A stretch of 64,000 nt of DNA. Origin: Chiloscyllium plagiosum (taxonomy: Eukaryota). The notes under the pieces are model-generated. The model had not been told where the DNA came from. It did not search any database and saw only the letters and a list, made by a program, of their open reading frames with translations. The stretch covers positions 38,620,401 to 38,684,400 of the forward strand of contig NC_057719.1 in NCBI RefSeq assembly GCF_004010195.1. The letters run 5' to 3'. The position numbers were made by a program, and so were the translations under genes. Positions 394-61,879 of the stretch are shown piece by piece; positions within the stretch are counted from its first letter, which is position 1, and each line of letters begins with the position of its first letter.

Positions 394-840
394 AAAACAG
401 AAAGTACTGGAATACTTCAGTAAGTTTAGTGCCATCTGCTGAGAGAACAGAGTTAAGATTGAGCCAAATAGGATTCTTCTGAACTAAATGCAGGTGGAAA
501 TGTGGGGCTGGGAGAATGAAGGAGCTGGGAATGAAGGGAAGCTATGGGATGGATTAGAGTGCATAAAGATTAAATGACAATGTTGTGGAACAAAAGGCAA
601 AAAGAGTGGTCATGGTTGTAGTAAAGAAACAAAATGCAAATGTGAATGGCGGAATAGAACATCTCTACCCAAAAGCAAATTTAAAAATGAAACACAGGAT
701 TCAGACAAAAAAAAAATCAAAATGGGGAAGCGCTCATGCTCCACAACTGCTGAACTCAATGCTGAGTCTGGAAGGCTGTAAATTGCCTTAAGAGAAGATG
801 GAGGTGCTATTTCTCAAGCTTGCTCAAGCTGCTTCATGAC
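394..840 (-). mobile_element. Decayed Penelope-like element 3' part (ORF end plus terminal repeat)
   Basis: 394-485 resembles the other terminal-repeat copies; the reverse complement of 750-825 resembles the PLE ORF C-terminus (HL.F.LG.LQPS.L.IEF). Confidence 0.5.
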
Positions 841-1820
841 CTCAGTTTGAGAGGTCACAAGGTTACTAAAGGTCATGGGAAACCCCACTCATGCTTAAGT
901 TTTAGGGCAAAGTAAACTTATAAGTTGGGCAAGCATTTTTAAAAATAAACTAACAGTTTTCTTAACCAGAACAAGACAAGAATCCTTCATACTTCAGAAT
1001 TTGTGTTGTGACAGTTTAACTGAAAATGGTTTTGTAATGTCCAACTGTTATAAGTAAACAACATATAAAAAAGTCAGTAATTTAGTCCCAAAGACCTAAC
1101 TACTATAAGAAAAATGACAAACTACCCTGTAATCCTTTATTCAGCACAAGACCAATCTCAACCACGTAGACAGTCAAATTGAGTTGTGAAGTGGATGTTG
1201 ATCATTTCATTTGAAAACTTACCAACAATTAACAAGTATTAATGAACGAACACCAATCCTCACCACTGACATAGGGCTTGCTCAGACTACTATATGTAAC
1301 ACTGATGAGAGCAAGAGCCCAAGATTTAAACAAGTTAAACGTGACCTTATAATCAATTATTGAAAGCTGCCATACACTAAACAGTTTAGTGCCCGAGGTT
1401 AGCTTTGGTAACAGTTAATCAAATCAAAATGAGCAACATAAAGTTATTATTTCATAGAATTTCCTTCATGTTAAATTGGCTAATTTAAAGTCATTTTGCT
1501 TAAATATGCCTTCTTCTTGATATGTTCAAAGCTGAATATAAAACTAATTCCATCTCTCAAATGATCACTTTTACCTTTGTTTTTCTTAACAAAAGGAAAA
1601 GAAAACTATGCACTCTTGAAACATCTTTTAGAAAAAGGAGTAAGCTTTAACAAGTTGGAAGAGGCTCCTGAATTTGTGAACTAAAACAGCACAGTCAATG
1701 TTATTTTGTCTGCATTCATAAATTCTAGCCCAAGTCACATCAGATTTGTTTGCGACCTAGTAAGCATAACCAATACGAATTGAGTGAAAGAGGAATAACT
1801 AAGACAGACAACAATAAAAT

Positions 1821-2040
1821 AGGTAAAAACAATGACTGCAGATGCTGGAAACCAGATTCTGGAGTAGTGATGCTGGAAAAGCATAGCAGTTCAGGCAGCA
1901 TCCGAGAAGCAGTAAAATCGACATTTTGGGCAAAAGCCCTTCATCAGGGCTGATGAAGGGCTTTTGCCCAAAACATCGATTTTACTGCTCCTCGGATGCT
2001 GCCTGAACTGCTGTGCTTTTCCAGCATCACTACTCCAGAT
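1821..2040. mobile_element. Self-inverted Penelope-like terminal-repeat insertion (182 bp palindrome) with hammerhead-core remnants
   Basis: 1858-1947 is the reverse complement of 1950-2039 (86/90 matches, 2-nt loop). CTGATGA-AGGGC-TTTT-GCCC-AAAACATC at 1950-1977. Flanks AACAATAAAAT / AACATAAAAT resemble a TSD. Confidence 0.85.
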
Positions 2041-3124
2041 AACATAAAATGAATGTTGGAAGTAAGTTGGGCAAGACCCATTAGGATGGCATCACTTTGG
2101 ATGGCTCTGGTGCCAAAGCAATTTCAGCAGGATAGTCTACATTTTAGATGCAATTTCTGATACAATTAGTTTCCTTAAGAAAGATGGAGCTCTGAGTATT
2201 TCATTAGTCCCCAACACTTGGAATAAATATCTGTGTGTGAACAGTTCTAGCCACAAAAATGTTTAGTTTTCATCATATCTGCATCAGGCTTTCTTCTTCA
2301 AGCTCTCCGCCAGGTACCTAGGTGTCCATGTTGGAAAGTAACCTGTTTATCTGGCTTTTTTTTCCACCTGACATTTCCTTTATGTGCAACTTTACAAACT
2401 GCCTTCCTTCAGAAACCATAGTCAGCTTCATATTAAGCTGTACATGTAACCATTAGGTGGTTACAACATGGCATATCACCATTCAGCACCTTGAGTCATT
2501 TCAGCGTATGCAGGATCAATTTAGCCACTCCACTACTCCATCTATTTTCCACAGCCCTGTGAATGATGCCTCTTTAGCTGCTTATTCAATTGCTTCCATC
2601 ACAGAGAGCATAGTGAGATTCCAGCTACTTGCCACATTAAAAAAAACTTTCCTCATATCATATATGGTTAATTTGGAAATAACTTTAAATTTACAATCTG
2701 GTTTTTCATCCTTCATCTGCTCTCTCATAATGAACACATATTCTCCAAGGAGAAAATCCCCAGCTTCTCCAATCTAACCTTCTAAAGAGAGCCAATCACT
2801 CCTGCACTGATTTTCATTCATTATTTCTGTATTTTCCAAAACCTTTATATATTTGCCTCAGTGTGGTATGCAGAAATGGACACAGAACTCCATTTGAGGT
2901 GGAACCAGAGCTTTATAAAGGTTTCATAACTTCCTCACTTTCATATTCCATGGCTCTATTTATAAAGTGAGTGGTGGACAAAGGACAAAATTAAGGGCTG
3001 CAATATAGTGCAAGAGGAACTCTTGTTATTCAATCTGTCCTGACTTAAACCCCATTAAAGACTTTACTTTGGTCCTTGCTCCAAGGCCTGGTGCTCAAAA
3101 TCTGTTTTATCAGAACTGGTAAAA

Positions 3125-3255
3125 GCTAGATGTAAGATTATCAACCTGAAATGTTAATTCTATTTCTCTCTCCACAGATGCTTCCAGGCCTGAGTATTTT
3201 CAAGATTTGCTATATTTTATTTCAGATTTCCAGTTCCTACAGAATTCTGCTTTTC
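3125..3255 (+). mobile_element. Decayed Penelope-like terminal repeat
   Basis: ...ACCTGAAATGTTAATTCTATTTCTCTCTCCACAGATGCT...TTTCAGATTTCCAG, same layout as other copies. Confidence 0.55.
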
Positions 3256-6655: not shown

Positions 6656-6659
6656 GACT

Positions 6660-7197
6660 TGAGGCCTGTAACCAGTGGTGGACCACAAGGTTTGGTGTTG
6701 GGTCCACTACTTTTTGGCATTTATAGAAATAATTTGGATGTGAACATAGGAGATATAGTTAGTAAGTTTGCAGATGACAGCAAAATTAGAGGTATAGTTG
6801 GAGGCTGAGGGATGACCTTATCAACATTTATATCATCATGAAGGGCATGGATAAGGTAAATAGACAAGATCTCTTCCCCAGGGGAGGCGAGTCCAAAACT
6901 AGAGAGCATAGGCTTAAGGCGAGGGGAGAAAGATTTAAAGGGATGTGATGGCTAACCTTTTCATGCAGAGGGTGGTGCATGTATCAAATAAGCTGCCAAA
7001 GGAAATGGTAGGAGCTGTTACAATTACATTATTTAAAAGGCATTTGGATGGGCATATGAATAGGAAGAGTTTAGTGGGATTTGGGCCAAATACTGGCAAT
7101 TGGGACTAGAATTACTTAGGATATCTGGTCAGCATGATCGTGTTGAACCAAGTAATCTATTTCCGTACTGTACATATCTATGACTCTATGGCTATGA
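6660..7197 (+). mobile_element. CR1 LINE 3' fragment with internal deletion
   Basis: AGTAAGTTTGCAGATGACAGCAAA (SKFADDSK), CR1 3' UTR and TATGACTCTATG tail. Confidence 0.85.
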
Positions 7198-8561
7198 GAC
7201 AAAGCGAAGATGGGAATTTTACATGGACTAATTCAACTCCAGACTCTCCAATGCCTGTGCGCTATCTACAAAATATAAGTGAAGAATGTGAGGGCAGGAA
7301 TATGTCCCATAAACAAGATGAATTACAACAACTTGCTAATACTTTTCACTTGTACCTTCTAAACCCATGTTCATGATACATAGAAGAAAAGGCTCAGAGC
7401 TGCATTGGAACATGGTCAACTGCAAATTCCCCTGCAAGTCATATATTTGGGAATATAAAATAATGCACTTCAAAATCCTGAAGCTGCCCTAGAATGTGAA
7501 TAACTGCTTTTTGGCAAAATATTTAGACTCTTTGGCAAAATAAGGTGAAAAGACTATTTTGTTTCACTTTTCTTCTCCTTCATATTACTGAATGTCAATT
7601 CTTGTTCAAGGATTACATTTAAGGCCATTAATGAGTAGCAGTCAAGTGATAAAGTTTCAGCATCTAATTTTTCAAAGACCACTGCTTAAAAATGTCTACT
7701 TGGATGGTCAATGAGGAGAAAATAATTCTTAGTTGTCAAACCATCTGTACATAGCTACTATCTTCACCAGACTCATTTGATAAAAATAGCATTTGGGCAA
7801 GGTACTGGTTGCTTATCTTTCATGCCTTACCGAATGGAAATGACTTATTTTGTCAACCAACCTTCATCACATAACTTCAATCACTAAACTGACAATTTTC
7901 CTGAATCTTTTGGATTAATAGAATATATAAAAATAATCCATCCATGGCACATTAACTGCTTAAGTCAATGAACTATCCAAGATTTCAAACTGATATGTAG
8001 CTGTGAAAAACAGCACAAAAGCAATTTAGGAGGCCAACATTGACAATTCCTGAGAATGGAAAAATGCATGCCAGAACCTACATGGCATTGTATAAAACAG
8101 GTATTATACAACAGGTTGCCTAGTTCTTGAACAATCTGCTGTTGTATTGATCATTCAACTGAAAAAGGATGTTACAACATCTGAATACAACAGAAAATTA
8201 CATTACTACTTCACATTCATTCAAATTTCCCGAACTATAAATCTGTAAGAATGAGATAAAGTTAGAAGGTACAGAACTCAGCCTTATATGGCATCTCTCT
8301 CTTTCCAGAGAATTTGCCAAAATTTTCACACCAAAAAGCTCGCTCTCTTCTAGAGAAGGTTGAAAACAATTTGCTCACCGGTCAATAGTTTCCTTTCGAA
8401 TGAATTAGAGTTGATTTTCTAATTTTTATCACAGCTGTTCACCCATTAACTTAACTTTTGAAACAGCTTAAAAGTTAAATAATTGTTCAGTAATTTATCT
8501 ATTAATTTATTTCACTATTCACAAAGCTATAAAATCCACAATATACCAGCAATCTTTAATT

Positions 8562-11386
8562 ATAGAACATAGAAGCACAGTACAGACCCTTCGGCCCTCG
8601 ATATTGCGCCGACCTGTCATACCAATCTGAAGCCCATCTAACTTACACTATTCCATGCACGTCCATATGCTTGTCCAATGACGACTTTAATATACTTAAC
8701 GTTGGCGAATCTACTACCGTTGCAGGCAAAGCATTCCATACCTTTACCACTCTGAGCAAAGAAACTACCTCTGACATCTGTCCTATATCTATCACCCCTC
8801 AAGTTTAAGCTATGCCCCCTCGTGCTCACCGTCACCATACTTGGAAAAAGGTTCTCGCTACCTATCTAACCCTCTGATTATCTTATATGTCTCTATCAAG
8901 TCACCTCTTAACCTTCTTCTCTCTAACGAAAACAGCCTCAAGTCCCTCAGCCTTTCCTCATAAGACCTTCCCTCCATACCAGGCAGCATCAGAGTAAATC
9001 TCCTCTGCACCCTTTCCAAAGCTTCCACATCCTTCTTATAATGTGGTGACCAGAACTGTACACAATACTCTAAAGTGCGGCCGCACTGAACTCAATCCCT
9101 CTATTCATAAAAGCCAAAACACTGTATGCCTTCTTAACGATCCTGTCAACCTGGGTAGCAACTTTCAAGGATCGCGTACCTGGACACCGAGATCTCTCTG
9201 CTCATCTACACGACCAAGAATCTTACCATTAGCCCAGTACTTTGCATTCCGGTTACTCCGACCAAAGTGAATTACCTCACACTTGTCCGCATTAAACTCT
9301 ATTTGCCACCTCTCAGCCCAGCTCTACAGATTGTCTCTCTGTAACCTACAACATCCTTTGTCACTATCCACAACTCCACCAACCTTAGTGTCGTCTGCAA
9401 ATTTACTAACCCACCCTTCTACGCCCTCATCCAGGTCGTTTATAAAAATAACGAACAGCAGTGGACCCAACACCGACCCTTGCGGTACATCGCTAGTAAC
9501 TGAAATCCAGGATGAACATTTCCCATCAACCACCACCCTCTATCTTCTTTCAGCAAGCTAATTACCGATCCAAACTGCTATATCGCCCACAATTCCATTC
9601 CTCCGCATTTTGTACAATAACCTACTGTGGGGAACCTTATCGAATGCCTTGCTGAAACCCATATACACCACAACCACCGGTTTACTCTCATCTACCTGCT
9701 TGGTCAGCCTCTCAAAGAACTCAATAAGGTTTGTGAGGCAAGACCTATCCTTCACAAAACCGTGCTGACTACATCTAATCAAATTATTCTTTTCTAGATG
9801 ATTATAAATCCTATCTCTCATACCCTTTTCCAACACTTTACCAACAACTGAAGTAAGGCTCACTGGTCTATAATTACCAGGGTTGTCTCTACTCCCCTTC
9901 TTGAACAGGGGAACCACATTTGCTATCCTCCAGTCTTCTGGCACTATTCCTGTAGACAATGACTATTTAAAGATCAATGCCAAAGGCTTGGCAATCTACT
10001 CCCTAGCTTCCCAGAGAATCCTAGGATAAATCCCACCCGGCCCAGGGGACTTACCTATTTTCACACTCTGCAGGATTTCTAATACCTCTTCATTGTGAAC
10101 CTCAAATCACACCTAGTCTAGTAGCCAGCATCTCAGTATTCTCCTCAACAACATGTTGTTTTCTAGAGTGAATATTGTCAAAAAATACTCATTTAGTGCT
10201 TCCCCTATCTCCTATGACTCAACACACAACTTCCCACTACTATCCTTGATTGGCCCTAATCTTACTCTCATCATTCTTTTATTCCTTAAATACCTATAGA
10301 AAGCCTTACGGTTCACCCTGATCCTATCCGCCAACAACTTCTCATGTCTCCTCTGAGCTCTCTCTTTAGGTCTTTCCTGGCTACCTTGCAGCCCTAACTG
10401 AGCCTTCACATCCCATCCTAACATAAGCCTTCTTCTTCCTCTTGACCAGAGATTCCACTTCCTTTGTAAACTACGGCTCCCGCGATCTACAGCTTCCTCC
10501 CTGCCAGGTACATACTTATCTAGGACACTTTCCTTGAATAAGGTCCACATTTCTAATGTGCCTATCCCCTGCAGTTTCCTTCCCCATCCTATGCTTCCTA
10601 AATCTTGCCTAATCGCATTGTAATTGCCTTTCCGCCAGCTGTAACTCGTGCCCAGTGATATACACCTATCCCTTTCTTTCACTAAAGTAAACATAACAGA
10701 ATTGTGATTGCTATCACCAAAGTGCTCACCTACTTCCAACTCTAACACCTGGCCGGGCTCATTACCCAGTACCAAATCTAATGCGGTTTCGCCCTTGTTG
10801 GCCTGTCTACATACTGTGTCAGGAAGCCCTCCTGCACACACTGGACAAAAACTGACCCATCTATAGTACTCTTACTATAGTGTTCCCAGTCAATATTTAG
10901 AAAGTTGAAGTCCCCCATGACATCTACCCTGTCTCTCTCACTCCTATCGTGAATCATTTTTGCTATCCTTTCCTCTACATCTCTGGAACTATTTGGAGGC
11001 CTATAGAAAACTCCCAACAGGGCAACCTCTCCTTTCCTGTTTCTAATCTCAGCCGACAAGTCCCCAAACATCCTTTCTGCAACTGTAATACTGTCCTTGA
11101 CCAACAATGCCACACCTCCCCCTCTTTTACCATCTTCTCGGTTCTTACTGAAACATCTAAATCCTGGAACCTGCAACAACCATTCCTGTCCCTGTTCTAT
11201 CCATGTCTCCGAAATGGCCACAACATTGAAGTCCCAGGTACCAACCCATGCTGCAAGTTCACCCACTTTATTCCGGATGCTCCTGGCGTTGAAGTAGACA
11301 CACTTCAAACCAATTTCTTGCTTGCCAGTGCCATCTTGCGTCCCTGAAACTTGCTTTCGGACCTCCCTACTCTCAACCTTTTCTAT
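8562..11386 (-). mobile_element. CR1-clade LINE, 5'-truncated, near-complete but frameshifted ORF2 (APE endonuclease + reverse transcriptase)
   Basis: ORFs 10778-11308 (YFNARSIRNK, VAISETW, GGGVALLVK, YRPP, MGDFNF = APE), 9558-9959 (NYRPVSLTSVVGK, QHGFVK..SCLTNL, FSKAFDKVPH) and 9324-9536 ([25 protein letters not shown]). TTCTATG-type microsatellite tail at ~8562-8574. Confidence 0.95.
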
Positions 11387-14084: not shown

Positions 14085-14208
14085 TGAAGTAGTTATGAAG
14101 AAATGTCATACTAGACTTGAAACATTTATTCTGTTTCTTTCTCCACACATACTGCAAGATCTGCTAAGTTTTTCAGATTTTCAGCATATTAGACAATATT
14201 GTCTAATT
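14085..14208 (+). mobile_element. Penelope-like terminal-repeat insertion
   Basis: TGAAGAAATGTC-ATACTA-GACTT-GAAACATT core remnant; flanked by TCACATTTTC (14075-14084) and TCATATTTTC (14209-14218). Confidence 0.6.
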
Positions 14209-26995: not shown

Positions 26996-29900
26996 GTAAG
27001 CAAAAACTGAACTGCTAGAGCAAAAATCATACAAGTACTCATAGCCTATGCCATAGTGATGAAATCCAAAGAATGTGTTTACACTCTTAACATTAATCTA
27101 GAAAGTAACAATTTGATGCAATTTAGTGGCCTTTGATCTTTAGGTGTATTGTGTCCTCTTGCTTTTTCAATGGTATGAAATAAATGCTAGTGGCTGTATA
27201 TGCTAAACAAACTATCATGCTGGATTGTCTACATACTTCCTACTTTGAGAAGACAACAGAGTGCAAATTTTAAACTGGCAGTTCAGTAGTTTTATAGAAA
27301 AATGTCCACCATAAACAAAAGAATGCTTTCTGAAAATTATTATTATAAAATACAATTAAATTACTTTTGAAGTATTTGAAGGCACAGCAGCTTTTGAACA
27401 AATACTTATTGCATCAATCTCTTGCAGAAAAGCAGGCCAAAGTTAAAACTGAACACCCAACCCACCACAATTATCTTTCACTAACAGCCAATCAGTTCCT
27501 AGTTTCACACAAATCTTACAAAGTAAACAACAGTTATAAACAATATGTAGTTCTTACTTTCTGCAGCTTATTTCTTCAAAAATTGAACCACTGCACATTG
27601 CAAAACAAAATATAATTTAGTCATTGGCTCAATTACAAACATGACCATTAGACTTGGTATAATTTGACAGTTCAGTGGAATCGAACCATTTCATATCAAA
27701 TTTTGTTATAAAAATTGCATATTGTAATAATAAATTTCAGTTACATTTGAAAAAAAAAACCAACTGGTTACAATCAAGGTAGTCAATGACCCAATTGTCA
27801 CAACTCATTAAAAAAGTACATTAAGCAATGTGTGGAGCGACTACAGAAAGGCAAATGCACTTTGAGTTTCTTCATTGAGACTATGGAATATAAAAACTAC
27901 GTAAGCATAATATTTTTCACATCTCACTTTGAAATATTGTGTCTACCTCTATTCCTTACAGATTGATAATAATTGTCAACATGCTGGAAAAACACCCAAA
28001 ATTATGTTGGACCTCAAACCTTGGTTCAGCAGAAAGTAAAATATAGATGATGAAAATCTAAAACAAAAGCAGAAACTTCTGATACAAGCTCATCAACCAG
28101 AAATGTTAAAAGCTTGGTCCTTCTCTATAGGTACAATAGCTAGGGTTATTTAATTTTCAAAATGCAGGATTAGAGGGGACATGATTGATTCTTTTAAAAA
28201 TAAATCATTTACAGTTAGTTTGAATAGGTTATTTGATTATGAATAGCAACAAAGGATCCACCAACTATGCATAAAAACACTTACTATACATAAGTCAGCA
28301 TTTATTTTTGCATGGAAAGTATTGCCCTCGACAACTGCCAAAACATGCAATGGTTTTGGATTCTTCCCTGTCTTAAAATAAGAAATGACAAATCCCTGAG
28401 CAAACACAGCATTCTAGTTACAGCATGTAGGTTGCTAGTTAGCTGGGATTAATTGGAGTTACAGATTGACACTGTCTCCAGGAGCCTTGCTTGATTACCT
28501 TAGGGAATCACAAAAGGAGTTTTTTTCTGAATTGGCCGCAGGTTTTTCTGCTTTATTTGCTTCTCCCAGGCTTTTGCATGGTTGGGGTGGGTCAAAAATG
28601 TACGTGATTGCACCATGTCTGGATGGGTGGCTTCATGATCTTTTCCCATCTTTTTTGTATGTTGCTGATTGGCTGCTGCAAATGGAAAACTTAGGTTAAA
28701 GAGAACCATTTATCTGTAATTAAAAGATAAGGAGAAGATTTTCAAATCATAAAGGTTGTTCATAACTTCCAAATGTAAATAAATTTCTGGCCTTGTTAAT
28801 GTGTTCAGGCCAAAGAACAAAGCAGCACATTTAAAGTAAGATTAACAACTGTTTTTTGTTAGTCATCATCTCTTCAAGTCCCAATCATGCTGTGATGTAA
28901 TTTCTTAGATATTCCTTGAGAGATAAAGAGACCAAACATGAACGCAACTACATTTATGGTTAAGGAACCTCATTGTGGTCATTTTTTGAGCTGGAAACTA
29001 ATTGTAAAGGGAGCTACTGCAGTATTTAGGACAGAAGTCCCACTCAATAAGTACACATTCAGGAACATACTTACCAACTTAGGTGATCTGAATTACAAAC
29101 AATTTCAAATCTGAAAATTGAGATAGCAAACGCACTGCAGGCATGCATGCGCATATAATGGTGCTCAAAGGAAATCAAAAGGTAAACAAGTCTCAATATC
29201 AGATCCTATTTCAAATACTCTTAAAAATACAAATTTGCATTAAACATGGCACTTTGTCTTTCCAATACCCAATTCCAAGGCTATTTACATAAATTTTATA
29301 TATACACACACATTTCACAATGTTTGCAGTTTTGATGTTACTTGATTAAAAAAATGAGACTTTCAAAACAAGAGCAGCTGCATTTTTTCACTACCTTGTA
29401 ATAATGGTGAATAAATAATCTAACCAAATCCAAAAACCATCTTTTCAACCACCACTAATAGATCGCACACACACTCCTCTAATATTTCAAAACTATGCTG
29501 GGTGTTACATTAAGGATCAATTTGAAATTATGCTTGTTAGGAGTTTTGCTTAACTCAAGTATTGCTGTGACTTTGTAAAAAAAGTTAGATTTTGTTTTTT
29601 GGTGGAACAATTACAATGCAGAATTGAGAACAATGGAACAGATGCGAGCCAGACAAAACCCCATTAATGTCACAAAAATATTTTAACTATAAACAACTCC
29701 AGATTACTGTGATTAAAATTTCATTTCATTACTTAATTTTGGAATTTGATGAGTTGGTATTCTATTAAAAAATCCAAATAGACAACTGACGAATAACTAT
29801 TTCACTCCAACTAAGATCAAGATCACTAGCAATGTACAATATTGTAACTTTAGTGATCTACAATGTAAATAGTACTGATGTTGTTAAATAGTAACCACTG

Positions 29901-30458: not shown

Positions 30459-30653
30459 TTCAAAATAAAATCACAACACCAGGTTATAGTCCAACAGGTT
30501 TATTTGGACATACTAGTTTTCAGAGTGCTGCTCCTTCACTGGGAGCAGCACTCTGAAAGCTAGGACTTCCAAATAAACCTGTTGGACTATAACCTAGTGT
30601 TTGTGATTTTTAACTTTGTCCACCCCAATCCAACACCAGCACCTCCACATCAG
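30459..30653. mobile_element. Self-inverted Penelope-like insertion, second family
   Basis: 30467-30535 is inverted to 30542-30610; GGAGCAGCACTCT-GAAAGCTA core remnant; TSD TGCT(T/A)CAGTGAAG at 30446-30458 and 30654-30666. Confidence 0.8.
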
Positions 30654-31935: not shown

Positions 31936-32081
31936 ATAAAACAAAGAACTGCAAATGCTGGAGATCTGAAATTGCTGGTGAACTCAGGACTGCCAGAGTC
32001 ACTGAACTCAAAATGTTAACTCTGCTTTCTTCTAGATGCTGCCAGACCTGCTGAGTCTGCCAGAAATTTAAGTTTTTGTCA
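31936..32081. mobile_element. Partly inverted Penelope-like terminal repeat
   Basis: AAAGAACTGCAAATGCTGGAGATCTGAAA start; GAGTC-ACTG-AACTC-AAAATGTT core remnant; GATGCTGCCAGACCTGCTGAG. Confidence 0.6.
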
Positions 32082-34760: not shown

Positions 34761-35960
34761 GGGAACGTGCCTTTGCAGATCCGGAGCTGGGAATGGGAAT
34801 AAATTCCTGGCTCTATCTGGGAATGGCAATGTATCCTTGGGGATCATGAGCTGGAAATGAAATAAACATTTGGGATGTCTTCGGAATAGGAATGTACCCT
34901 TGCAGATCCGGAACCGGGAATGAGAATAAACTAATGGATTTCCGGGAACGGGAATGTTTCTCTGGAAATCCGAGCTGGAAATCAGAGTAAACTCTTGGAT
35001 ATCTGAGAATAGGAATGTATTCTTGGAGATCATGAGCTGGCAATGAGAATAAACTCCTGGATATTTGGGAATAGGAATGTATCCTTGGAGATCCACAACA
35101 GGGAATGAAAATAAATTAATGGATTTCCAGGAATAGGACTGTTTCTCTGGAAATCAGAATAAACTCTTGGATATCTGGAAATAGGAATGCATCCTTGGAG
35201 ATCCGGAGCTGGAAATTAAAACAAACTCCTCAATATTCGGGAATAGGAATCTTTTTCTGGAGATCCAGAGCTGGATCCAGAATAAACCCTTGGTTATCTG
35301 GGAATAATAATGTATCTTTTGAGATCCAGAACTGGAAATAAAAGTAAACTGAATATCTGGGAAAGGAATGTTTCACTGAAGATCCGAAGCTGGGAATGAA
35401 AATATGTCCCTGGAGATATGGGGGCATGTCATTGCAGATCTGGAAATGTGATTCCGAGATCCGGGGCTGAGAATTGTCTTGGAAGATCTGGGACCTGGAA
35501 TGTGTCCCTGGAAATCTAAGAATAGGAATCACGAGTAGAAATTGCTTGAAAAGCTCAAGCAGGTCTGGCAGTATCTGTGGAGAGAAATCAGAATATGGGA
35601 ATATTTCAAGGATGATCTGGGGCCGTGAATGGGAAACTGTCCCTGGAGATCTGGGGATGGGTGTGTGCTGGGAGATCCTGAAACAGGAATGTGCCCTACG
35701 AGATCTGGAAACAAGAATGAAAATGTGCACCGGGAGATCTGTGATTGCTGCTTGGAAGTGTCCCAGGTGATCTGGAGCCAGGAATAGGAATATTGCACAG
35801 AGTTTTGGGGCCGTGAACGGGAATATGTCCCTGGATATTCAGGAATGGGAGTGCACCTGGAGATCCAGGGCCGAGGATGAGAACGTGCTGTGGGATATCT
35901 GGGAATAGGAATGAGGATGTGTCCTGGAAGATCCGGGGCATGGAATGTTTCCCGTAAGAT
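34757..35960. repeat. Tandem minisatellite, ~62 bp unit made of two related ~31 bp halves, degenerating distally
   Basis: ATAGGA(A/C)TGT recurs at 35009, 35071 and 35133 (62 bp period). Consensus approx. GGGAATAGGAATGTATCCTTGGAGATCCGGAGCTGGAAATGAGAATAAACTCCTGGATATCT. Confidence 0.9.
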
Positions 35961-37339: not shown

Positions 37340-38430
37340 GTAAGCTGTGCATAGGACACAAAAGGTTACAGAAAGGTAATTATAGGTTAAGTGAGTAGAC
37401 AAAGATGTGACAACTGAAACATAATGTGGGGAAATTTTATACTGTCCATTTTGGCAGAGAAAAAGGAAAAATTTTTTTTTATCTAAATAGAGAATGCAGA
37501 GCTCTGAAATATAGAGGAATCTGATTGATTTTGTGATGACCTGTAAAAGGTTAGCATGCAAGTACAGCAAGTAATTAGAAAAATGAATAGAATGTTATAA
37601 TTTATCCCTCGGGGAATTGACTATGAAGTAGGAAGACTATGCTTCAGTTATACAATACACTGGTGAGGCCACGTCTGGAGTGCAAAGTATTGGTCACCTT
37701 ACCAAAGAATAATGTAAGCACAATGGAGGCAGATTAGAGTGGTGCTGGAAAAGCACAGCAGGTCAGGCAGCATCTGAGGACCAAGAGGTACAATGGAGGC
37801 AGTTCTGTGAAGATTTATTAAACTAATTTATTAAACTAATTTATTAAACTTGTGTTATGAAGGAAAGGTTGGACAGGCTAAGTTTGAATCTGCTGGAGTT
37901 TAGAAGAGTAAGAGGCAATTAGGCTCAAACATAAAATACTGAGGGGTCTTGATAAGGTGGATGTAGAGAGGATATTTCCTCTTGTGGGTAAATTTAAAAC
38001 TAGGGGGTCACTGTTTAAAATGCACATTGTGGAGCACGTCTTATGAGGATAGGTTGCACCAGTTGGGCTAGTTTCCACTGGAGTTTAAATGCATGAGGAG
38101 TGATTTAATTGAAATGTATAAAATCCTGAATGGTCTTGACAACATGGGTGTGTAAAGGATGTTTCCTCTTGTGGATAAGTCTAGAAATAGAGGCACTACT
38201 TTAAAATTAGTTGTCATCCCTTTAGGAGAGGGATATAGAGAATGTTTTTACACTCAGAGGGTTGTGTGGCTCTGGGATTTCCTGCCTCAGAAGGCAGGGT
38301 TATTGAATACTGTTAAGCTAAAGGTAGGTAGATTCTTGTTAGGGGAATGAAGGGTAATTGAAGGTAGGTGGGAATATGGAGTTCAAACACACAGATCAGA
38401 CATGATCTTATTGAATGTGGAGCAGTCTTG
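37340..38430 (+). mobile_element. Old CR1 3' region with a repeated 3' segment
   Basis: RT-end similarity; block GGGTCTTGA..AAGGTGGATGT..AGGAT.TTTCCTCTTGTGG occurs twice (~37945 and ~38130). Confidence 0.7.
37733..37789. mobile_element. 57 bp Penelope-like terminal fragment with perfect 13 bp TSD
   Basis: GTGGTGCTGGAAAAGCACAGCAGGTCAGGCAGCATC matches the 1858 arm; ACAATGGAGGCAG at 37720-37732 and 37790-37802. Confidence 0.85.
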
Positions 38431-39156: not shown

Positions 39157-39262
39157 GCTTCATCAGCTCTGATGAAGAGTCATCTAGACTCAAAAAATAG
39201 CTTGCTCTTTTTCCATTGATGCAGCCTGAGTCACTGTGAACTCTAGCATTTGTTGTTTACAG
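39157..39262 (+). mobile_element. Penelope-like terminal repeat, third family, with hammerhead-core remnant
   Basis: CTGATGA(39169)-AGAGTC-ATCTA-GACTC-AAAAAATAGC, preceded by a short inverted CTTCATCAG. Confidence 0.7.
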
Positions 39263-39547
39263 TATCTCATATCCCTTCTTTGCCTTCCTCATCTCCTTCT
39301 TAAGAATGCCCCTACACTCTCTATGTTGTTCTAGAGATTCATTTGAACCCAGTTACCCATAAAATACATGATTCTTTTTTATTCTTGACTAGAGCCTCAA
39401 TATCTTTATTCATCTATTGTTCCCTAATTCTACCAGCCTTACCTTTCACTCTAACAGGAATATAATGAGTCTGAATTCTCATTATCGCACTTTTGAAAGC
39501 CTACCACTTATCAGACAATGGTCTGCTTCTGCTCCTATTTTGTATGT

Positions 39548-40120: not shown

Positions 40121-40291
40121 AAAGTCAAAAGAAGTGCAGATGCTGTAAATCAGAAACAAAAACAGAATTTGCTGGAAAAGCTCAGCAGGTCTAGCAGCAT
40201 CTGTGAAGAGAAATCAAAGATAATGTTTGGTGACCCTTCCTCAGAACTTCTGAACTGCTAGCTTTTCCAGCAACTTCTGTTTTTGTTTGTG
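40121..40291. mobile_element. Partly inverted Penelope-like insertion
   Basis: AAACAAAAACAGAATTTGCTGGAAAAGC is inverted to GCTTTTCCAGCAACTTCTGTTTTTGTTT; TSD AAG(T/A)GATGGTA at 40110-40120 and 40292-40302. Confidence 0.75.
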
Positions 40292-45409: not shown

Positions 45410-45587
45410 ATAGCTTTATTTGAAAGCACGAGTTTTTGGAGCACTGCTCCTTCATCAGGTGGTTGTGGATGAAAGAGCAGTGCTCCAAAAGCTAGTGCTT
45501 CCAATAAACCTGTTGTTTGATAACCTGGTGTTGTGTGATTTTTAATTTTGTATACCCCAGTCCAACACCGGCACCTCCAAAGCATGG
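45410..45587. mobile_element. Self-inverted Penelope-like insertion (same family as 30459-30653)
   Basis: Minus strand CTGATGA-AGGAGC-AGT-GCTCC-AAAAACTC; TSD-like CCA(A/T)AATGTCCA at 45398-45409 and 45588-45599. Confidence 0.8.
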
Positions 45588-51012: not shown

Positions 51013-51300
51013 TTAAGAAATGTGACTGGACCCTAATTGACATTTGAAAGGATTGGAAAGGAAATTCTGATTGAATTTCATTTGGGGTGGGAAGATGCCT
51101 GTTCGGAAATTAGACATTTACTCTAAATAGCCAACTTCCATGCCGTGATATTGTGTAATTCAGGCGTAAGGTTACTATGTAGGTTTTGTAGAGAAGCAAA
51201 ATATTTGTACAGTACTTCACAATATGGGTTTGAACAAGGGGAAAATATCTTTGTTTGACTTCAGTCAGGTGACATCTGAAAGAGTGGCAACCAGGGACTA

Positions 51301-52719: not shown

Positions 52720-53223
52720 GTGTTGTGAAACTTGAAAGGGTTCAGAAAAGATTTACAAGGATGTTGCCAGGGTTGGAGGATTTGAGCTATAGGGAGAGTT
52801 TGAATAGGCTAGGGCTGTTTTCCCAGAAGCGTCGGAGACTGAGAGGTGACCTTATAAAGGTTTACAAAATCATGAGGGTATGGATAGGATAAATAGACAA
52901 GTCTTTTCCCTGGGGTGGGGGAGTCCAGAACTAGAGGGCATAGGTTTAGGGTGAGAGGGGAAAGATATAAGAGACCTAAGGGACAACTTTTTCACGCAGA
53001 GGGTGGTACATGTATGGAAAGTGCTGCCAGAGGAAGTGGTGGAGGCTAGTACAGTTGCAACATTTAAAAGGCATCTGGATGGGTATATGAATAGGAAGGG
53101 TTTGGAGGGATATGGGCCGGGCGCTGGCAGGTGGGATTAGATTGGATTGGGATATCTGGTCGGCATGGACAAGTTGGACCGAAGAGTATGATTCCATGCT
53201 GTACGTCTCTTTGACTCTATGAC
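52720..53223 (+). mobile_element. Young CR1 3' fragment
   Basis: Highly similar to 42890-43391. Confidence 0.9.
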
Positions 53224-54559
53224 ACTATTCCCTTCCTATTCATGTATTCTTCCAGGTGCTTCTTGAATGCTGCTATTGTGTCTGCATCTGGCAGTGCATT
53301 CTAGGCACTCATCACTCTTTGTGTGAAAAATCTGCCTCACACGTCTCTTTTAAACTGCCCCTACCCCTGCTCCATCCCCATGAGCCTGTGTCAGCTAGTA
53401 ATTGACCCCTCCACCTATGAGGGAAAATGCCTCATACTTTCCACTCTATCCATGCCATTCACAATGTTATGAACTTCTATCAGGTCACCCCTCAACCTCC
53501 TGCATTCCAGTGAAAACAAACCCAGTCTATCTAACTTTCTCCGTAGCTACACTCATAATGTTTGTGCTGGTTTGACCACTATTACCAATTCGATGGTGGC
53601 TACATATCAAAAGCCTTTCCATATAGTGTGGAGGTTACTGGGTCATGACCTTTTGAACATCTATACATCTGCTATAAGGGCATGTACAAGGATACTGATA
53701 CTGACAATTGTGGCACCATGATACAAAATATGGAATATTGATCTTTGAACCTCATTGGATGATTTAATGATGGTGAGTTAATGATGACTAACCCAGTCTC
53801 AGAATAAGGGGCAGAGCATTTAGGATTGAAGTGAGGAAGCATTTATTCACTCAGAGGGTGGTAAAATGTTGGATTACTCTATCTAAGAGGCTGTTGAAAT
53901 TCAATCATTGAGTATATTCAAGTGAAAAAGTGAGAAAATTCCAGATGTTAAAGATATCAAGGGATATGGGAAGTGGTGTTGGAAAATGGTGTTGAGATAG
54001 AAGGATTTCCATGAACTGAAATCATTTTAAAACGGACATAAAGTGTGGCTTAAAATAGCCGCAAGAGTGACCTGACTCACATATGATGGCCAGATTTCAT
54101 GAAAATTAAATCAAAGATAGTCTGAGATAAAATCAACATCTCATCTCGCGGGCAAAAATGTCTCCCTCCATCTCCTTGCCAGCTCCTCAAGAGGGGTGGC
54201 AAGACCCTCATAAGACTCTTCATGTGTTGGACATGGAACACTACCTGCAATTATCAAGCCTGAAGAAACATAACTTCAGTAGACATGGAATACACAGCCA
54301 AGATGTTATTTAAAGAAGTAGCTTTAGGTAGAGTGGAGGAAATGGAACTCAGGATGCAGAACTGAATATTAGCAAAATCCGAGTGACTATGGGTTTGCTC
54401 CCAGATTCTTATTTCTACAATCTTCTCCACCATAAATGTTAAAGTGACTGACCTCTAATTGTCAACTTTATAAAAGCATTGAAACAGCTGTTGGCCATTT
54501 AGCCCCTCCAGCCTGCTCTGCTATTCCAGACCATGGTCGATCATCTACCTCAATGCCAT

Positions 54560-55072
54560 CTCATAGAGCCATAGAGTTATACAGCACAGAAACAGACCCT
54601 TTGGTCCAACTCATCCATACTGATGAGACATCTAATCTGACTTAGTCTTATTTGCTAGCATTTGGCCCATATCCCTCTAAACCCTTCCTACTCATATACA
54701 CATCCAGATGTCTTTTAAATGTTGTAACTGTATGTGCCTTCACCACTTTCTCTGGCAGCTTGTTCCATGCACACACCACCCACTCCATGAAAACATTACC
54801 CCTCAGGACCTTTTTAAATCTTTCCCCTCTCCTCTTGTACCTATGACCTCTAGTTTTGGACTCCCCCACCCCAGGAAAAAGTCCTTGGCTATTCACATTA
54901 TCTGTGCCCCTCATGGTTTAATAAACCTCTATAAGGTCACCCCTCAACCTCCAACTCTCCAGGGAAAATAGCCCCAGCACATTCAGCCTCTCCCTATAGC
55001 TCAAATACTCCAATGCTGGCAACATTCTTGTAAATCTATTCTGCACCCTCTCAAGTTTAACAATATCTTTCC
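54560..55072 (-). mobile_element. CR1 3' fragment
   Basis: ORF 54648-54914 (LFPGVGESKTRGH...WNKLPEKVV...FKRHLD). Confidence 0.9.
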
Positions 55073-56373
55073 CGTGGAAGGGCAACCTGAATTGTTTGAA
55101 GTATTCTTAAATCATGAGCAACAAATATTGGCATTGCCAATAATAATCACATTTCATGATCAAGCAAAGGAAAAGAACTTTTTTAGACAACGGGAGATTG
55201 GTAAACCTGACAATTACAGGCTAATCAGTTTAGTACTCGTGCTCTTGAAGATTTTAGAAACAATCAAACCACATCACAAAGTTAAATGAAATTGTGCATT
55301 TGAGTAATAATTTGATCATTATATTCAAAACAGAAATGCCTGGACAGCAAATTCTGTAACTCTTTTCAGCATTAATTTCCCAATCTATTGTCTAGTTAAA
55401 AATAATCTAGTTTAGTGATCATATCAAAATAGATTCAGAAAATTAGGTGCTAGATAAGATGCAAGGAGACATGTGTTCTGTAGCAATTTTATGTAACAAG
55501 ATCTGCTGCACCAGTTATATACTAACAGGACATTAACTTTAAAAAGGTAACTTGAGCAGGACCTGTTTTATAGACCAAAGATTAACAGTAGCACTATTTT
55601 TAAATTGTTTAAGTGTTCTTAAACATTTTGAAGGAAACAAAATGCAGACTTTATACAGTAAAAATTGATAAGCTTTGAATCTATCTTCTGCTGAGGCAAT
55701 CTTAATATTCACTTTGATGCAACTATGTCCTAACTTCACATGTCAAACCTAATATCTGTGGACAATTCTTTAATATTGTATCAAATGAAGCAAACTAATT
55801 CACATGAAACATTACTTATCGAGGATCTTTTTCCAACTTATGGAATCCTGAAATGCACATCACAATCCAAAAGTATTGGTTTTCTAGTGTAAATTTTATT
55901 ATTCATTTTACATATGTTGAGTCATCACTTACTAGATTCTGAAATTCAAACTAATAGAGTATTTTAAAAATGGCCACTAAAGCAGCAAATGGCCACCAAA
56001 GGTCATCTGACTTCTCTTGTGGATTCAAACCGCTCCAGTCCACTTTGTCAAGAGAGAGTGAAGGGAATGTTCCAACTGATATGATCCGAATGGGTGTTAT
56101 CGTCAAATTGAAATAGCTATGGTTATCCAAACACAATGGTCTGAACTGTCTCAAACTCACAAAGTGTTAAGCACCAACATTAGTTGTGTAATCAACACAA
56201 TTATCTGTCTCATTTGGAAGGTGACTTTAAACTTGTAAAACATCACATGATGAGAAAGCTGTAATTTCTGTTAGCTTTTAAAATCAGCACAAACCATTTG
56301 CAGACCGAATTCTACCAGAAAGGCAGTGAACGAGCTGCAAATAATTCAAGCTGCCAAGGTAATAAACAACATG

Positions 56374-56509
56374 CTGGAAAAGCGTATCTTCAGGCTTATG
56401 CCCGAAACGTCGATTCTCCTTCTCCTTTGACACTGCCTGACCTGCTGCGCTTTTCCAGCAACACATTCTTAAGCTCTGATCCCCAGCATCTGCAGTCCTC
56501 ACTTTCTCC
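56374..56509 (+). mobile_element. Penelope-like insertion with perfect 14 bp TSD and intact 3' half of the hammerhead core
   Basis: TAATAAACAACATG at 56360-56373 and 56510-56523; GGC-TTAT-GCCC-GAAACGTCGA at 56393-56413; short inverted CTGGAAAAGCG at the left end. Confidence 0.88.
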
Positions 56510-57425: not shown

Positions 57426-57465
57426 GAACCATTCATCCTTATCCATAAATGGCTTAAAAATTATG

Positions 57466-57632
57466 TCAGAAGTCACAAAACACCTAATTATAGTCCAACA
57501 GGTTTACTTGAAATCACAAGCTTTCAAAGCGCTGTCTCTTCGTCAAGTTAAGTGAATTTGTTGAACTATAATCAAGTGTCGTATGATTTCTGACCTTGCC
57601 CACCCCATTCCAACACCGGCACCTCCACATCA
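57466..57632. mobile_element. Partly inverted Penelope-like insertion (family of 30459-30653)
   Basis: TTATAGTCCAACAGGTTTA...CCAACACCGGCACCTCCACATC; TSD-like TTAA(A/G)A(A/C)TTATG at 57454-57465 and 57633-57644. Confidence 0.72.
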
Positions 57633-58497: not shown

Positions 58498-59401
58498 AAA
58501 CCTTATACACTCATAACTGTGCGGCCAAATTCAGCTCGAGCTGAATTTACAAATTTGGTGATGACACCACCATAGTGAATCGGATTGTAAACAATGATGA
58601 GACAGGGTACAGGAAGGAGATAGCTTAGTGACATGGTGTAAAGACAACAATCTCTCCCTCAATGCCAGCAAAACGAAGGAGCTGGACATCAACTTCAGGA
58701 ATTGGAGTGGAGGACGCGCTGCTACCTGTATCAATGGTGCTGAGGTGGAGACCTCTATGTTCCGAGGAGTAAATATCAACAATGACCTGGAGCATCAACA
58801 TGGATTGGAGCGTCAATCCATGTTGATGCTCCAGTCAGGAAAGTATACCAATGCTTCCATTTCCTCAGAAAGCTAAGCAATTTCAGTATGCCCACAACAA
58901 TACTTACCAATATTTATAGATCCACCATTGAAAGTATCCTATTAGGATGCATCACAGCTTGGTTTGGCAACTGCTCTGCCCCAGACCACAAGAAATTACA
59001 GAGTTGTGAACACAGCCCAGTCCATCATGAAAACTAGCCATTCTTCCACTGACTGCATCTACACTTCCCAGCACCTCAGGAAAGCAAACAGCATAATCAG
59101 ACATTCCTCTCACCCCGGATATACTCTCTTCCACCCTCTTCCATCAGGCAGAAGATACAAAAGTTAGAAAACACGTACCAACAGACTTAAGAACAGCTTC
59201 TTCCTCATTGTTATCAGACATTTGAACTCTGATATATTAGAGTTGATCTTTCTCTGCACCTTCTCTGTAGCTGTAACACTATATTCTGCGTTCAGTTCTA
59301 TTACTGAATGTACTTATGTTAAGCATGATTCATCCAGTTAGCATTAAATACAGTAGTTTTCACTGTATCTCAGTACATGTGACAATAATAAATCAAATCA
59401 A
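58498..59401 (+). mobile_element. Rex1/Babar-clade LINE 3' fragment
   Basis: KFGDDTTIV, WCKDNNLSLNASKTKELDINFR, LFHPLPSGRRYKS motifs; AATAAATCAAATCAA tail. Confidence 0.8.
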
Positions 59402-59419
59402 CTAAAAAAAAGCCAGTTG

Positions 59420-60340
59420 TTGAGCCAAGTATGTAACTGTACTATCTTCCTATTCCTAGTCTTACTGACACATGACACAAGAAATATTCCTGAAATTACA
59501 AACCTAGAAGTGCTGCTTTTCAACTTACTCCTAATGCTCTTTTCAGAATTTCATCATTATTCCTGCCTGTGTCATCAGTACCAACATGTGACTCAACCTC
59601 TGTCTGTTTGCTCTCTCTTTTGATAATGTCCTGCACCTGCTCAGAGATGTCCTTGACTCTGGCAGGGGGCCAAGAGAAGCAACACATCATTCCGGAGTTT
59701 ACTTTGTGGCCACAGAAATGCTTGTCTGTGCCCCCGACTACAGTTCCCTGTTACTACTGCTCCTCCCTCTGGCTACTGCTGTGCCCATTCCCTGATAGGC
59801 AACCCTCCCGACCAGTATCCAAAATGGTGTACTTGTTAGAGATAGCCACAGGGGTTCCTGCAGTGACTGCCCGCCTTATCTAAAGGTTCGAGACAAAAAA
59901 AATCTGCAGGTGCTGGAACCCAAGGTAGACGAGCTAGAAGACTGGAAGAACACAGTAAGCCAGGCAGCATCAGGAATGCACATGCCCAAAAGAAGGGTTG
60001 TACCTTAAATGTTAACTTCTCCACCTCCTGATGCTGACTGGTTTGCTGTGTTCTTTCAGCATCCTGCTTGTCCATCTTATCTAAAAGTTATCCATCCATC
60101 TGATTGAACCTTGAGAATGACCACATCTCTAAAATCCCTGTGAATGATGCTTTCTGCTTCCTGCATGCTTCGAAGAGCGTCAACTGTCACTCTAACAGAT
60201 TCACCTGGTCTGACAGGAGCTCCAACTGGACACGCTTCCTCAGATGAAGTTGTCAGGAGTGTTCAAACTGTTTCTGATTTTCCACATTCCACAATAGAAC
60301 CCCACTCAATGCAGTTTTCACCCTCCAGCTATATAACTAG
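59420..60340 (-). mobile_element. CR1 ORF1 remnant (esterase-like) interrupted by a Penelope-like insert
   Basis: Reverse complement of 59630-59750 resembles G..V.GTD..FCG....S.M.CC..A.VKD.SE. Confidence 0.55.
59889..60075. mobile_element. Self-inverted Penelope-like insertion
   Basis: GAAGAACACAGTAAGCCAGGCAGCATCAGGA is inverted to TCCTGATGCTGACTGGTTTGCTGTGTTCTTTC; TSD CTTATCTAAA(G/A)GTT at 59875-59888 and 60076-60089. Confidence 0.78.
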
Positions 60341-60855
60341 TTAATTAAAATTAAATTTCTCCTAAATTAATTTATAGCCAATTAGTTGGTCCCTGCTGTT
60401 AGATTCTCACTAAAAAGTTTAAAATATGCTATTCTGTAAATGTAAGTCTAGGTACTACTTTAAACCCTAGTACTGTAGTACACTCTAATGAGGACAAGTG
60501 GAAAGAAAATTAAACTGTAGAAGATGATTTCCTGTATCTTTTTACTTTGGATGGAAGTATACAATGCTCACTTTCAATTCAGCTTCTACTTTAAAACAAA
60601 AGTCCGGTGACACATAGAAAGGGTGGTAACATCAATATCGTCTTCCCCTCAATGATTTCTGTCCACTTGTGTGATACCTCTCCATCCCTGTTATCTTTCC
60701 ACATCTCCCCAACCCTTTTTCTCCCACAATCTCAACCTCCACAGTGCCAAGCTACAAGTTGCTCTCCCTTATCAACACCCCTCCTCCGCCACCTTCTTGA
60801 CCTCCCATGGAGAGCAAACCTCACAGCTGCCAGTCACTAACACCAGAAAACTCTA

Positions 60856-61554
60856 AATTAAAAAAAACAAAGTACTGCCAATGCTGGAAATCACAAAACG
60901 AAAAACAGAAATTGCTGGGAAAAAAATTCAGCAAGTCTGACAGCATCTGTGGAGACAAAACGGTTTGGGTCTAGTGACCATTCTTCAGAACTGATTGTAG
61001 CTTGGAAAGGGTTGATGTATATGCTGAAGGAGAAAAAAAATATAAGTGGAGATGGAACCAGAGAGAGAGAAATAGTTGGACAATAAAGGAATGGGTAAAA
61101 GTCAGCGTGGGAGAATCAATAATTGCTAATGGGGACCATTTGTAGCTGACAATGAGTTGGTTGTGGTAGCAGCCCATGTGATGACAAAATCTGGTGTGTG
61201 GTGGTTGGGGTGAAGATATGGGAGAAGGTGCTCAGGCCCTAAAATTATTTAACTTAATACTGAAGGCTGCAGGGTTCCCAGGTGGAAAATGAGATGATAA
61301 TGGTCAGAATTAGCAGGTATTGATTCCTATAGGCTGAACTTTACTCATTCCTTTCTCTCTGTCTTTTTGGACTCCATCTCCAGCCATTGTTTATTCGTCC
61401 CCTCTCCCTCACCGCTTCTCCAGCATATATATCAACATTTTCCTAGCTACAATCAATTCTAAAGAAGGGTCACTGGACCCAAAACATTAACTTTGCTTCC
61501 TCTCAATACATAGTGTCGGACTTGCTGAGTTTTTTCCAGCAATTTCTGCTTTTG
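60856..61554. mobile_element. ~700 bp Penelope-like insertion: inverted terminal repeats around an ORF C-terminus
   Basis: Arms ~60906-61141 and ~61298-61549 are inverted; spacer minus strand 61296-61261 reads HLIFHLGTLQPS; TSD CCAG(A/C)AAACTCTA at 60843-60855 and 61555-61567. Confidence 0.82.
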
Positions 61555-61879
61555 CCAGCAAACTCTAGTTGCTGCCTTGCACCAGTCCCCTTCCTAATCC
61601 CAGCAAAGTAGCCTCTCATTCTGACCAGCTGGAAATGATAAACAATTGTAAAATATACACCCTCCAAGGATATTCCAATTTCCTAGCTATTCCTCTGCAA
61701 ATCCTCTCCACCACCCTCCCAGCTATTTTTCCCTAGAGCTGGGATCTACAAATTTGGAATAAACACGACATTACAATCATGCATTTACAAAGTGCGGATT
61801 TAAGTCATTTGCAATCATATCATAGTGCAGGAATGCATGAAGTGTACAACTGTGTGGGGTGTGAGGTCAGAATTTTGCT

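What the first reader, a model, noticed from the sequence alone, without database searches (positions are those of the whole stretch)
394..61567. Multi-family population of tiny self-inverted, hammerhead-ribozyme-bearing retro-insertions with 10-15 bp TSDs
Seen: about 15 short elements share one layout (a terminal repeat plus a partial inverted copy). TSDs are readable at 30446/30654, 37720/37790, 40110/40292, 45398/45588, 56360/56510, 57454/57633, 59875/60076 and 60843/61555. Unrelated families keep the same core: CTGA(T/A)GA, a hairpin, then (G)AAA-CGTC/CGTT/GCTA. The hairpin sequence changes while pairing is kept: GGGC-TTTT-GCCC (1958), GGAGC-AGT-GCTCC (45437), GAGTC-ATCTA-GACTC (39177), GGGTC-ACTG-GACCC (61467). 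Established: Penelope-like elements carry minimal type I hammerheads in their terminal repeats and often form inverted structures. Inference: several PLE lineages seeded these non-coding hairpin insertions here, and some may be a non-autonomous, retrozyme-like class that is poorly annotated in sharks.
Basis: partly seen in the sequence, partly recalled or inferred. Interest (0 to 1): 0.75.

Follow-up and report, generated by a model that had tools for sequence, protein, structure and literature searches.

The report
Twin-primed Penelope stubs with hammerheads
These tiny mirror-image insertions are the cut-short ends of several Penelope-type jumping genes of a known kind, not a separate ribozyme family, and their shapes likely record both cut DNA strands starting a copy of the same RNA, a step not yet settled for this group.

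Summary
The elements are real. The window has 16 loci with terminal-repeat (pLTR) arms of five Penelope-like (PLE) families; 9 are head-to-head inverted. No window copy keeps an intact hammerhead (0 of 9 arms), but intact cores occur genome-wide (15,500; 5,005; 130; 178 exact hits) and helix I covaries between families.

They are not a separate non-autonomous or retrozyme class. Longer copies of all five families run upstream into a GIY-YIG endonuclease; family A has an RT + endonuclease ORF. No tandem arrays appear in 464 kb. Inverted pLTRs, a tail on one arm, TSDs and minimal hammerheads are all published PLE features.

The added value is mechanistic. Exactly one arm carries the tail in 30 of 32 and 48 of 50 pairs; junctions include zero-loop palindromes; arms usually share subfamily variants. 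This favours twin priming over the published fold-back idea. In one subfamily, 5' ends are about 4-9-fold enriched at the predicted ribozyme cut.

The scan has reported this class in this genome, and twin priming in other genomes, many times.

The parts
1823..2039 (.). Family A head-to-head pair: tailed arm on minus (-1..+126 relative to the hammerhead's first base), short arm on plus (0..+89); both hammerheads decayed; decayed TSD
30459..30653 (.). Family B inverted pair: short arm minus, tailed arm plus; 13-bp TSD at 30446/30654
31940..32079 (.). Old family C-type inverted pair (tailed arm minus, short arm plus), read partly by eye
37733..37789 (-). Family A single short-ended arm (+36..about +88), no hammerhead; 13-15-bp TSD at 37720/37790
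39158..39264 (+). Family D single short-ended arm (-13..+96), decayed hammerhead; no TSD found
40121..40291 (.). Family C inverted pair: tailed arm minus (-4..+132), short arm plus (+60..+101); 11-bp TSD at 40110/40292
45410..45587 (.). Family B inverted pair: short arm minus (from -11), tailed arm plus (+2..+121); 12-bp TSD at 45398/45588
56374..56509 (.). Older family A copy: about 11-nt inverted arm plus tailed arm on plus (about +7..+126); perfect 14-bp TSD at 56360/56510
57466..57632 (.). Family B inverted pair: short arm minus (from -2), tailed arm plus (from +46); decayed 12-bp TSD at 57454/57633
59889..60075 (.). Family E inverted pair: tailed arm minus, short arm plus with decayed hammerhead; 14-bp TSD at 59875/60076
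60856..61554 (.). Family C-type inverted pair of about 700 bp; the minus arm runs through the 3' UTR into the GIY-YIG C-terminus (61293-61252); 13-bp TSD at 60843/61555
394..456 (-). Old family C-type pLTR remnant
748..823 (-). Fragment matching the endonuclease end of the family D consensus
3144..3233 (+). Old family C-type pLTR remnant
14091..14174 (+). Old family C-type pLTR remnant
28046..28095 (-). Old family C-type pLTR remnant (weak hit)
35537..35592 (-). Family C pLTR fragment inside the 62-bp tandem array

Best explanation
These are heavily 5'-truncated insertions of at least five endonuclease-positive Penelope-like retrotransposon families, and the head-to-head ones were likely built by twin priming: both strands of one staggered cut each start a DNA copy of what is usually the same RNA. 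SHOWN: each stub is the hammerhead-pLTR-tail segment of an element whose longer copies carry a GIY-YIG endonuclease; a family A copy has this segment in front of an RT + endonuclease ORF; TSDs peak at 14-15 bp; inverted pairs carry the tail on one arm only. INFERRED: (1) the endonuclease cuts both target strands about 14-15 bp apart; (2) one end primes at the fixed tail site (+126 in A) and the other about 35 nt further in, at a looser site; (3) both copies often run off near the start of the hammerhead (about -4 to -13), likely the RNA's 5' end, which makes the tiny inserts a by-product of the ordinary transcript; (4) the two copies are joined by blunt, microhomology or filled-in end joining; (5) most templates were uncut, but a minority had been cut by the hammerhead. 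The window's copies are dead remnants.
For: ORF link: endonuclease upstream and on the same strand as the hammerhead in A (L005, L012, L130-L138), C (L070), D (L082, L097, L102), B (L027, L044, L045) and E (L020). L141 shows hammerhead, tail, then ORF start; L145 has a 504-aa frame with RT motifs and GIY-YIG (Pfam GIY-YIG above cut-off, RVT_1 weak at E 0.009); its best named relatives are shark and ray proteins. One tailed arm: 30 of 32 pairs in an unselected 464 kb, while single arms are 28 tailed and 29 short (binomial p 1e-7), and 48 of the first 50 of 1,560 family A sites. No tail-to-tail pairs. TSD found in 45 of 50, mode 14-15 bp. The untailed arm starts further upstream than the tailed arm in 19 of 32 pairs, so it cannot be a copy of that arm. 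6 of 50 junctions are zero-loop palindromes and 1 of 50 fits fold-back from the tailed arm. Arm subfamily type agrees in 31 of 42 typed pairs against 8.1 when shuffled; private duplications are shared by both arms (L246, L264). Cut-site test: about 284 copies (95% CI 131-489) start at the predicted cut, against 78 (52-100) at +30 and 31 (18-45) at +26. In vitro, an Anolis PLE nicks and extends both strands and starts at two internal sites (PMC11167929).
Against: The 50-pair set was selected for near-symmetric junctions, which biases it against fold-back geometry; the unselected pairs include overlaps of 2-13 nt with large offsets that fold-back plus later trimming could also make. PMC11167929 reports no difference in start site between the two strands, which does not by itself predict the strict one-tail rule. 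Arm similarity could partly come from gene conversion after insertion. 11 of 42 typed pairs disagree, clearly so in L249, L256 and L265, so some events used two templates. The transcription start is not mapped: an extra G before -4 is only weakly enriched (19 G to 12 A in the first 100 hits, p 0.02) and is confounded by subfamily variants. The cut-site estimate rests on 8 of 30 loci in one subfamily, two control positions and an assumed flank composition. RNA reads show no pile of starts or ends at the cut, but the library is fragmented poly(A) single-cell RNA.
Confidence: 0.68

Rival explanations
1. They are PLE stubs, but the inversions arise by fold-back self-priming (as proposed for rotifer PLEs, on an antisense template), with the endonuclease later trimming the tail from one arm.
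For: Proposed in PMC3846280 (Discussion read); PMC8557442 (passages) ascribes the one-sided tail to endonuclease resolution. Arms usually share variants. Several unselected junctions have microhomology.
Against: Zero-loop palindromes (6 of 50) and many blunt or filled junctions; arms of different subfamily in L256 and L265; non-overlapping arms such as L206, where a 19-nt tail arm faces a -6..+94 arm; the untailed arm is the 5'-longer one in 19 of 32 pairs.
Confidence: 0.2
2. A separate non-autonomous, retrozyme-like or MITE-like family of hammerhead hairpins, mobilised as a unit by PLE proteins.
For: Stubs far outnumber ORF-bearing copies, and 5' ends cluster just before the hammerhead, giving a recurrent unit of about 130 nt. 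A preprint derives animal retrozymes from pLTRs and finds some in one chondrichthyan (10.64898/2026.07.22.740005). L248/L249 share one junction.
Against: All families continue into an endonuclease; junctions and ends are copy-specific; no tandem hammerhead arrays among 85 hammerhead-bearing arms in 464 kb; TSD length varies; head-to-head hammerheads lie on opposite strands, so one transcript holds only one sense copy and cannot release a circle. L248/L249 also share their flanks, so they are a local duplication.
Confidence: 0.07
3. The hammerhead is real in ancestry but no longer cuts; the 5'-end peaks (at -4 and at the cut site) are reverse-transcriptase stalls at RNA structure.
For: Minimal hammerheads cut poorly in vitro (PMC4209133); cutting is not needed for insertion in vitro and no RNA-seq ends were found at the cut in Anolis (PMC11167929); no pile of read ends here; the cut site borders helix I, where a stall is plausible.
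Against: Core and helices are conserved with compensatory changes across families, and the excess of 5' ends falls on the predicted bond rather than 2 nt to either side.
Confidence: 0.25

Closest known systems
Endonuclease-positive PLE insertion unit: pLTR, adjacent inverted 5'-truncated copy, 30-40-bp tail at one end, TSD (PMC3846280, passages and Discussion; PMC8557442, passages)
   Same: Head-to-head inverted pLTR, tail on one arm only, strong 5' truncation, TSD, GIY-YIG endonuclease with a CxxC linker (Neptune/Nematis type).
   Different: TSDs here peak at 14-15 bp (8-10 bp in the rotifer examples read); most copies are only 100-250 bp; very high copy number; the junction data favour twin priming over the self-priming proposed there.
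Minimal type I hammerheads of metazoan PLE pLTRs (PMC4209133, parts 1-2 of 4)
   Same: Conserved core, extra A before helix II, G-C base pair closing helix II, palindromic stub in place of helix III, short helix I, many single dispersed motifs in consensus families.
   Different: Sharks were not among the taxa named in the parts read. Helix II is 4-5 bp here. All window copies are decayed.
Poseidon element PAc of Anolis carolinensis (PMC11167929, parts 1-2 of 4)
   Same: Internal RT start at two sites that bound the tail; hammerhead about 100 nt upstream; mostly uncut template.
   Different: Different clade; here the tail lies before the ORF start (L141) rather than inside the ORF; the strict pairing of one tailed with one untailed arm in an insertion is not described in the parts read.
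Non-LTR retrozymes (PMC7229834, passages; bioRxiv 10.64898/2026.07.22.740005, parts 1-3 of 5)
   Same: Type I hammerhead, short non-coding units, pLTR ancestry, TSDs longer than 4 bp.
   Different: Retrozymes are head-to-tail tandem arrays that make circular RNA; these are single or head-to-head, with minimal hammerheads and no arrays.
LINE-1 twin priming (recalled; search listing of PMC2837659 only)
   Same: Both target strands prime; inverted product inside one TSD; microhomology at the joins.
   Different: In L1 the two copies cover non-overlapping parts of the RNA; here the arms usually overlap, which would need strand displacement or two pLTR templates.

Membership tests
Endonuclease-positive Penelope-like element | Single ORF with RT and C-terminal GIY-YIG endonuclease | tested here: met
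   Family A: L141, L145. For B, C, D, E only the endonuclease end was seen upstream of the pLTR; their RT was not looked for.
Endonuclease-positive Penelope-like element | pLTR at both ends, with optional 30-40-bp tail and inverted 5'-truncated copy | tested here: met
   Segment seen before the ORF (L141) and after the endonuclease (L130-L138); two 3' ends about 35 nt apart in A-D; inverted pairs.
Endonuclease-positive Penelope-like element | Target site duplication | tested here: met
   7 of 8 named pairs; 45 of 50 inverted family A copies.
Neptune/Nematis-type PLE | CX2-5CxxC linker before the GIY-YIG domain | tested here: met
   CX4CxxC in family A translations; related motif in D.
Neptune clade specifically | RT phylogeny with reference clade members | not tested
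   No Repbase or Dfam reference set on hand; no tree built.
Minimal type I hammerhead | Core, helix I and II, palindromic helix III stub, NUH site | tested here: met
   Met in family majorities A-D with helix I covariation; not met by any window copy (0 of 9); no Rfam model hits it.
Minimal type I hammerhead | Self-cleavage | not testable with these tools
   Indirect only: excess of 5' ends at the predicted bond; no read-end pile.
Non-LTR retrozyme | Two or more head-to-tail units each with a hammerhead | tested here: not met
   Of 85 hammerhead-bearing arms in 464 kb, the only same-strand neighbours within 1 kb belong to adjacent separate inverted insertions; no such array in the window. The rest of the genome was not screened.
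Non-LTR retrozyme | Circular RNA | not testable with these tools
   No joints listed; that library is not suited to the question.
MITE | Fixed TIRs, fixed short TSD, uniform length | tested here: not met
   The two ends differ (tail vs none); TSD 9-19 bp; junctions copy-specific.

The most novel reading that the evidence does not exclude
Shark genomes hold a readable record of the unresolved PLE integration step: a PLE protein pair primes both strands of a 14-15-bp staggered cut at two sites about 35 nt apart on one RNA, the two copies overlap by strand displacement and run off the RNA's 5' end, and a few per cent of templates were already cut by the minimal hammerhead, showing that these weak ribozymes cut in the germ line.
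Probability: 0.5. Interest if true: 0.62.

Novelty: new member of a known kind. Interest (0 to 1): 0.36.

Why it matters
As a class it is ordinary: PLE ends with minimal hammerheads are described. It matters as data. How PLEs finish integration, why they so often insert as head-to-head pairs with one tail, and whether their minimal hammerheads ever cut in animals are open points in the papers read. This genome offers thousands of young junctions that discriminate between models and point to a direct in vitro test. In practice, such stubs fill about 3% of the region sampled (14,848 of 450,695 bp) and mimic microRNA hairpins, so they can mislead annotation.

Tried and rejected
Rfam scans of the window and of three young inverted copies: no hammerhead family, only sub-threshold microRNA hits caused by the palindromes.

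De novo hammerhead scan of the window: not clearly above shuffles.

Cap-derived extra G at the 5' end: the G before -5 proved to be a subfamily variant, and the G before -4 is only weakly enriched; inconclusive.

Raw count at the cut site (533 vs 53) was rejected as it stood: 22 of the 30 loci inspected have element sequence upstream (mostly an internal duplication subfamily), so only the corrected estimate is used.

Expression: no RNA holder listed. Of four runs laid, X19 gave 729 reads, nearly all partly matching dispersed stubs; X20 gave none; no start or end pile at the cut.

An intact full-length ORF was not recovered from the 20 stretches fetched; most long frames were assembly gaps.

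Retrozyme and MITE readings rejected as above. The U6-fusion lead from earlier notes was not tested. Literature searches found no paper on shark PLE hammerheads and none applying twin priming to PLEs (listings only); Repbase and Dfam could not be checked, and the preprint's supplementary tables on its one chondrichthyan were not seen.
Full report
Observation. The window lies in a 3.56-Gb genome whose retroelement proteins are closest to shark and ray sequences. Family searches give 22 hits at 16 loci; with the element at 59889-60075 there are 17 loci, 16 with pLTR arms. Nine of the 16 are head-to-head inverted (6 automatic; 3 by eye). The eighth is decayed.

The ribozyme. None of the 9 window arms that span the motif is intact; 19 of 66 are intact in the surrounding 464 kb. 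Exact intact cores are common genome-wide: 15,500 for A, 5,005 for B, 130 for C and 178 for D, with 0 for the reversed controls. Family majorities show the minimal type I layout of PMC4209133 (parts 1-2 of 4 read). Helix I changes compensatorily: C-G, T-A in A; C-G, A-T, C-G in B; T-A, T-A, G-C, A-T in C; T-A, C-G, G-C, A-T in D. Helix II was part of the search patterns, so its pairing is not independent evidence. Rfam does not model this variant.

What the elements are. In longer copies the sequence upstream of the hammerhead is a 3' UTR preceded by a GIY-YIG endonuclease, on the same strand, in A, C and D and in B and E. The window element 60856-61554 holds the endonuclease C-terminus itself. 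L141 shows hammerhead, tail and then the ORF start; L145 has RT motifs, a CX4CxxC linker and GIY-YIG. So the stubs are ends of Neptune/Nematis-type PLEs (linker feature from PMC8557442, passages); the clade was not tested by a tree. Copies share two 3' ends about 35 nt apart and have variable 5' ends. No tandem hammerhead arrays were seen among 85 arms. Retrozyme membership (PMC7229834, passages; bioRxiv 10.64898/2026.07.22.740005, parts 1-3 of 5) and MITE membership both fail.

How the inversions form. In the unselected 464 kb, 30 of 32 inverted pairs have exactly one tailed arm (the other two look mixed by eye), while single arms split 28 tailed to 29 short; no tail-to-tail pair occurs. In the first 50 of 1,560 family A sites, 48 are mixed; L276 scored tail/tail but its second arm appears to end near +95, and L280 is short/short within a larger inverted repeat. 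L248 and L249 are one locally duplicated event. A TSD was found in 45 of 50, mode 14-15 bp; lengths are inflated by microhomology at the untailed end. The tailed end is fixed, the untailed end is looser (10 of 50 outside +72..+100).

Fold-back or twin priming. The untailed arm starts further upstream in 19 of 32 unselected pairs, so it cannot be copied from the tailed arm. Six of 50 junctions are zero-loop palindromes; 1 of 50 fits fold-back from the tailed arm (I did not script the opposite direction, and by eye it adds L247). That set is biased toward symmetric junctions. Arms agree in subfamily type in 31 of 42 typed pairs (8 of 50 dropped as too short or untyped) against 8.1 on shuffling, maximum 17 in 2,000. 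Three pairs clearly disagree. The simplest reading is two separately primed copies, usually from one RNA. This fits the in vitro finding that a PLE protein nicks and extends both strands and starts at two internal sites (PMC11167929, parts 1-2 of 4), and departs from the self-priming proposal in PMC3846280 (passages and Discussion). Fold-back with later trimming is not excluded for the unselected junctions with microhomology.

Why so small. 5' ends cluster just before the hammerhead: 22 of 59 family A arms start at -8 to -3 (partly inflated by older subfamilies whose upstream sequence differs), and public runs show loose ends at -5 to -2 and at +126. A transcript that starts in the 5' pLTR would carry the RT start sites only about 130 nt from its 5' end, so run-off copies are an expected by-product. 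The start site is inferred; a cap-derived G was not shown.

Does the hammerhead cut? In one young subfamily, true 5' starts were 8 of 30 loci among 533 hits at the predicted cut, 18 of 30 among 53 at +30, and 13 of 30 among 36 at +26. After correcting for the flank letters allowed, that is about 284 (131-489), 78 (52-100) and 31 (18-45) copies. The +26 pattern needs one more intact CpG, which lowers its count somewhat. This suggests a minority of templates were cut, but a stall at helix I could mimic it, and reads show no end pile there.

Novelty. The layout, tail, TSD and hammerhead are in print. Searches found no paper on these shark families and none applying twin priming to PLEs (listings only); Repbase, Dfam and the preprint's supplements were not available. 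I noted the twin-priming idea; one search then showed that earlier agents reached it in other genomes, and that this class was reported often in this genome. Those notes are not evidence here. Verdict: new members of a known kind, with useful but indirect mechanistic evidence; interest 0.36.

Noticed in passing
window 34758-35933: Degenerate 62-bp (and 110-bp) tandem array just after a CpG-rich stretch at about 34000-35000 (GC 0.51-0.57, CpG o/e 0.75-0.80), a likely promoter island; a family C pLTR fragment sits inside the array.
   Followed up: no
window 50775-51647: Two copies of a tRNA-type SINE in inverted arrangement (HE1/V-SINE-like; name recalled), with a third copy at 14605-14883.
   Followed up: no
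window 58787-58834: Perfect 21-bp inverted repeat with a 6-nt spacer that matches none of the PLE families; it appears to sit in an old LINE fragment.
   Followed up: no
L246, L264, L298-L324: A family A subfamily carries a tandem duplication of about 16-17 nt right after the hammerhead cut site; this segment is the most variable part of the young pLTR, with at least six variants.
   Followed up: partly
L029:1400-1630 (oriented); L308: L029 joins a family A inverted arm to a family B direct arm; L308 joins the element's ORF-start region to a second copy at the cut site through microhomology. Both suggest template switching or two-RNA events.
   Followed up: no
L206; 464-kb sample positions 33357 and 167279: Apparently single short-ended copies carry a 15-27-nt inverted piece of the tail at their 5' end, the non-overlapping form expected from classical twin priming.
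   Followed up: partly
window, many places (e.g. 6668-9500, 20862-23998, 42851-44219, 52721-55105): Abundant CR1-type LINE fragments make up most of the self-similar sequence (family name recalled).
   Followed up: no
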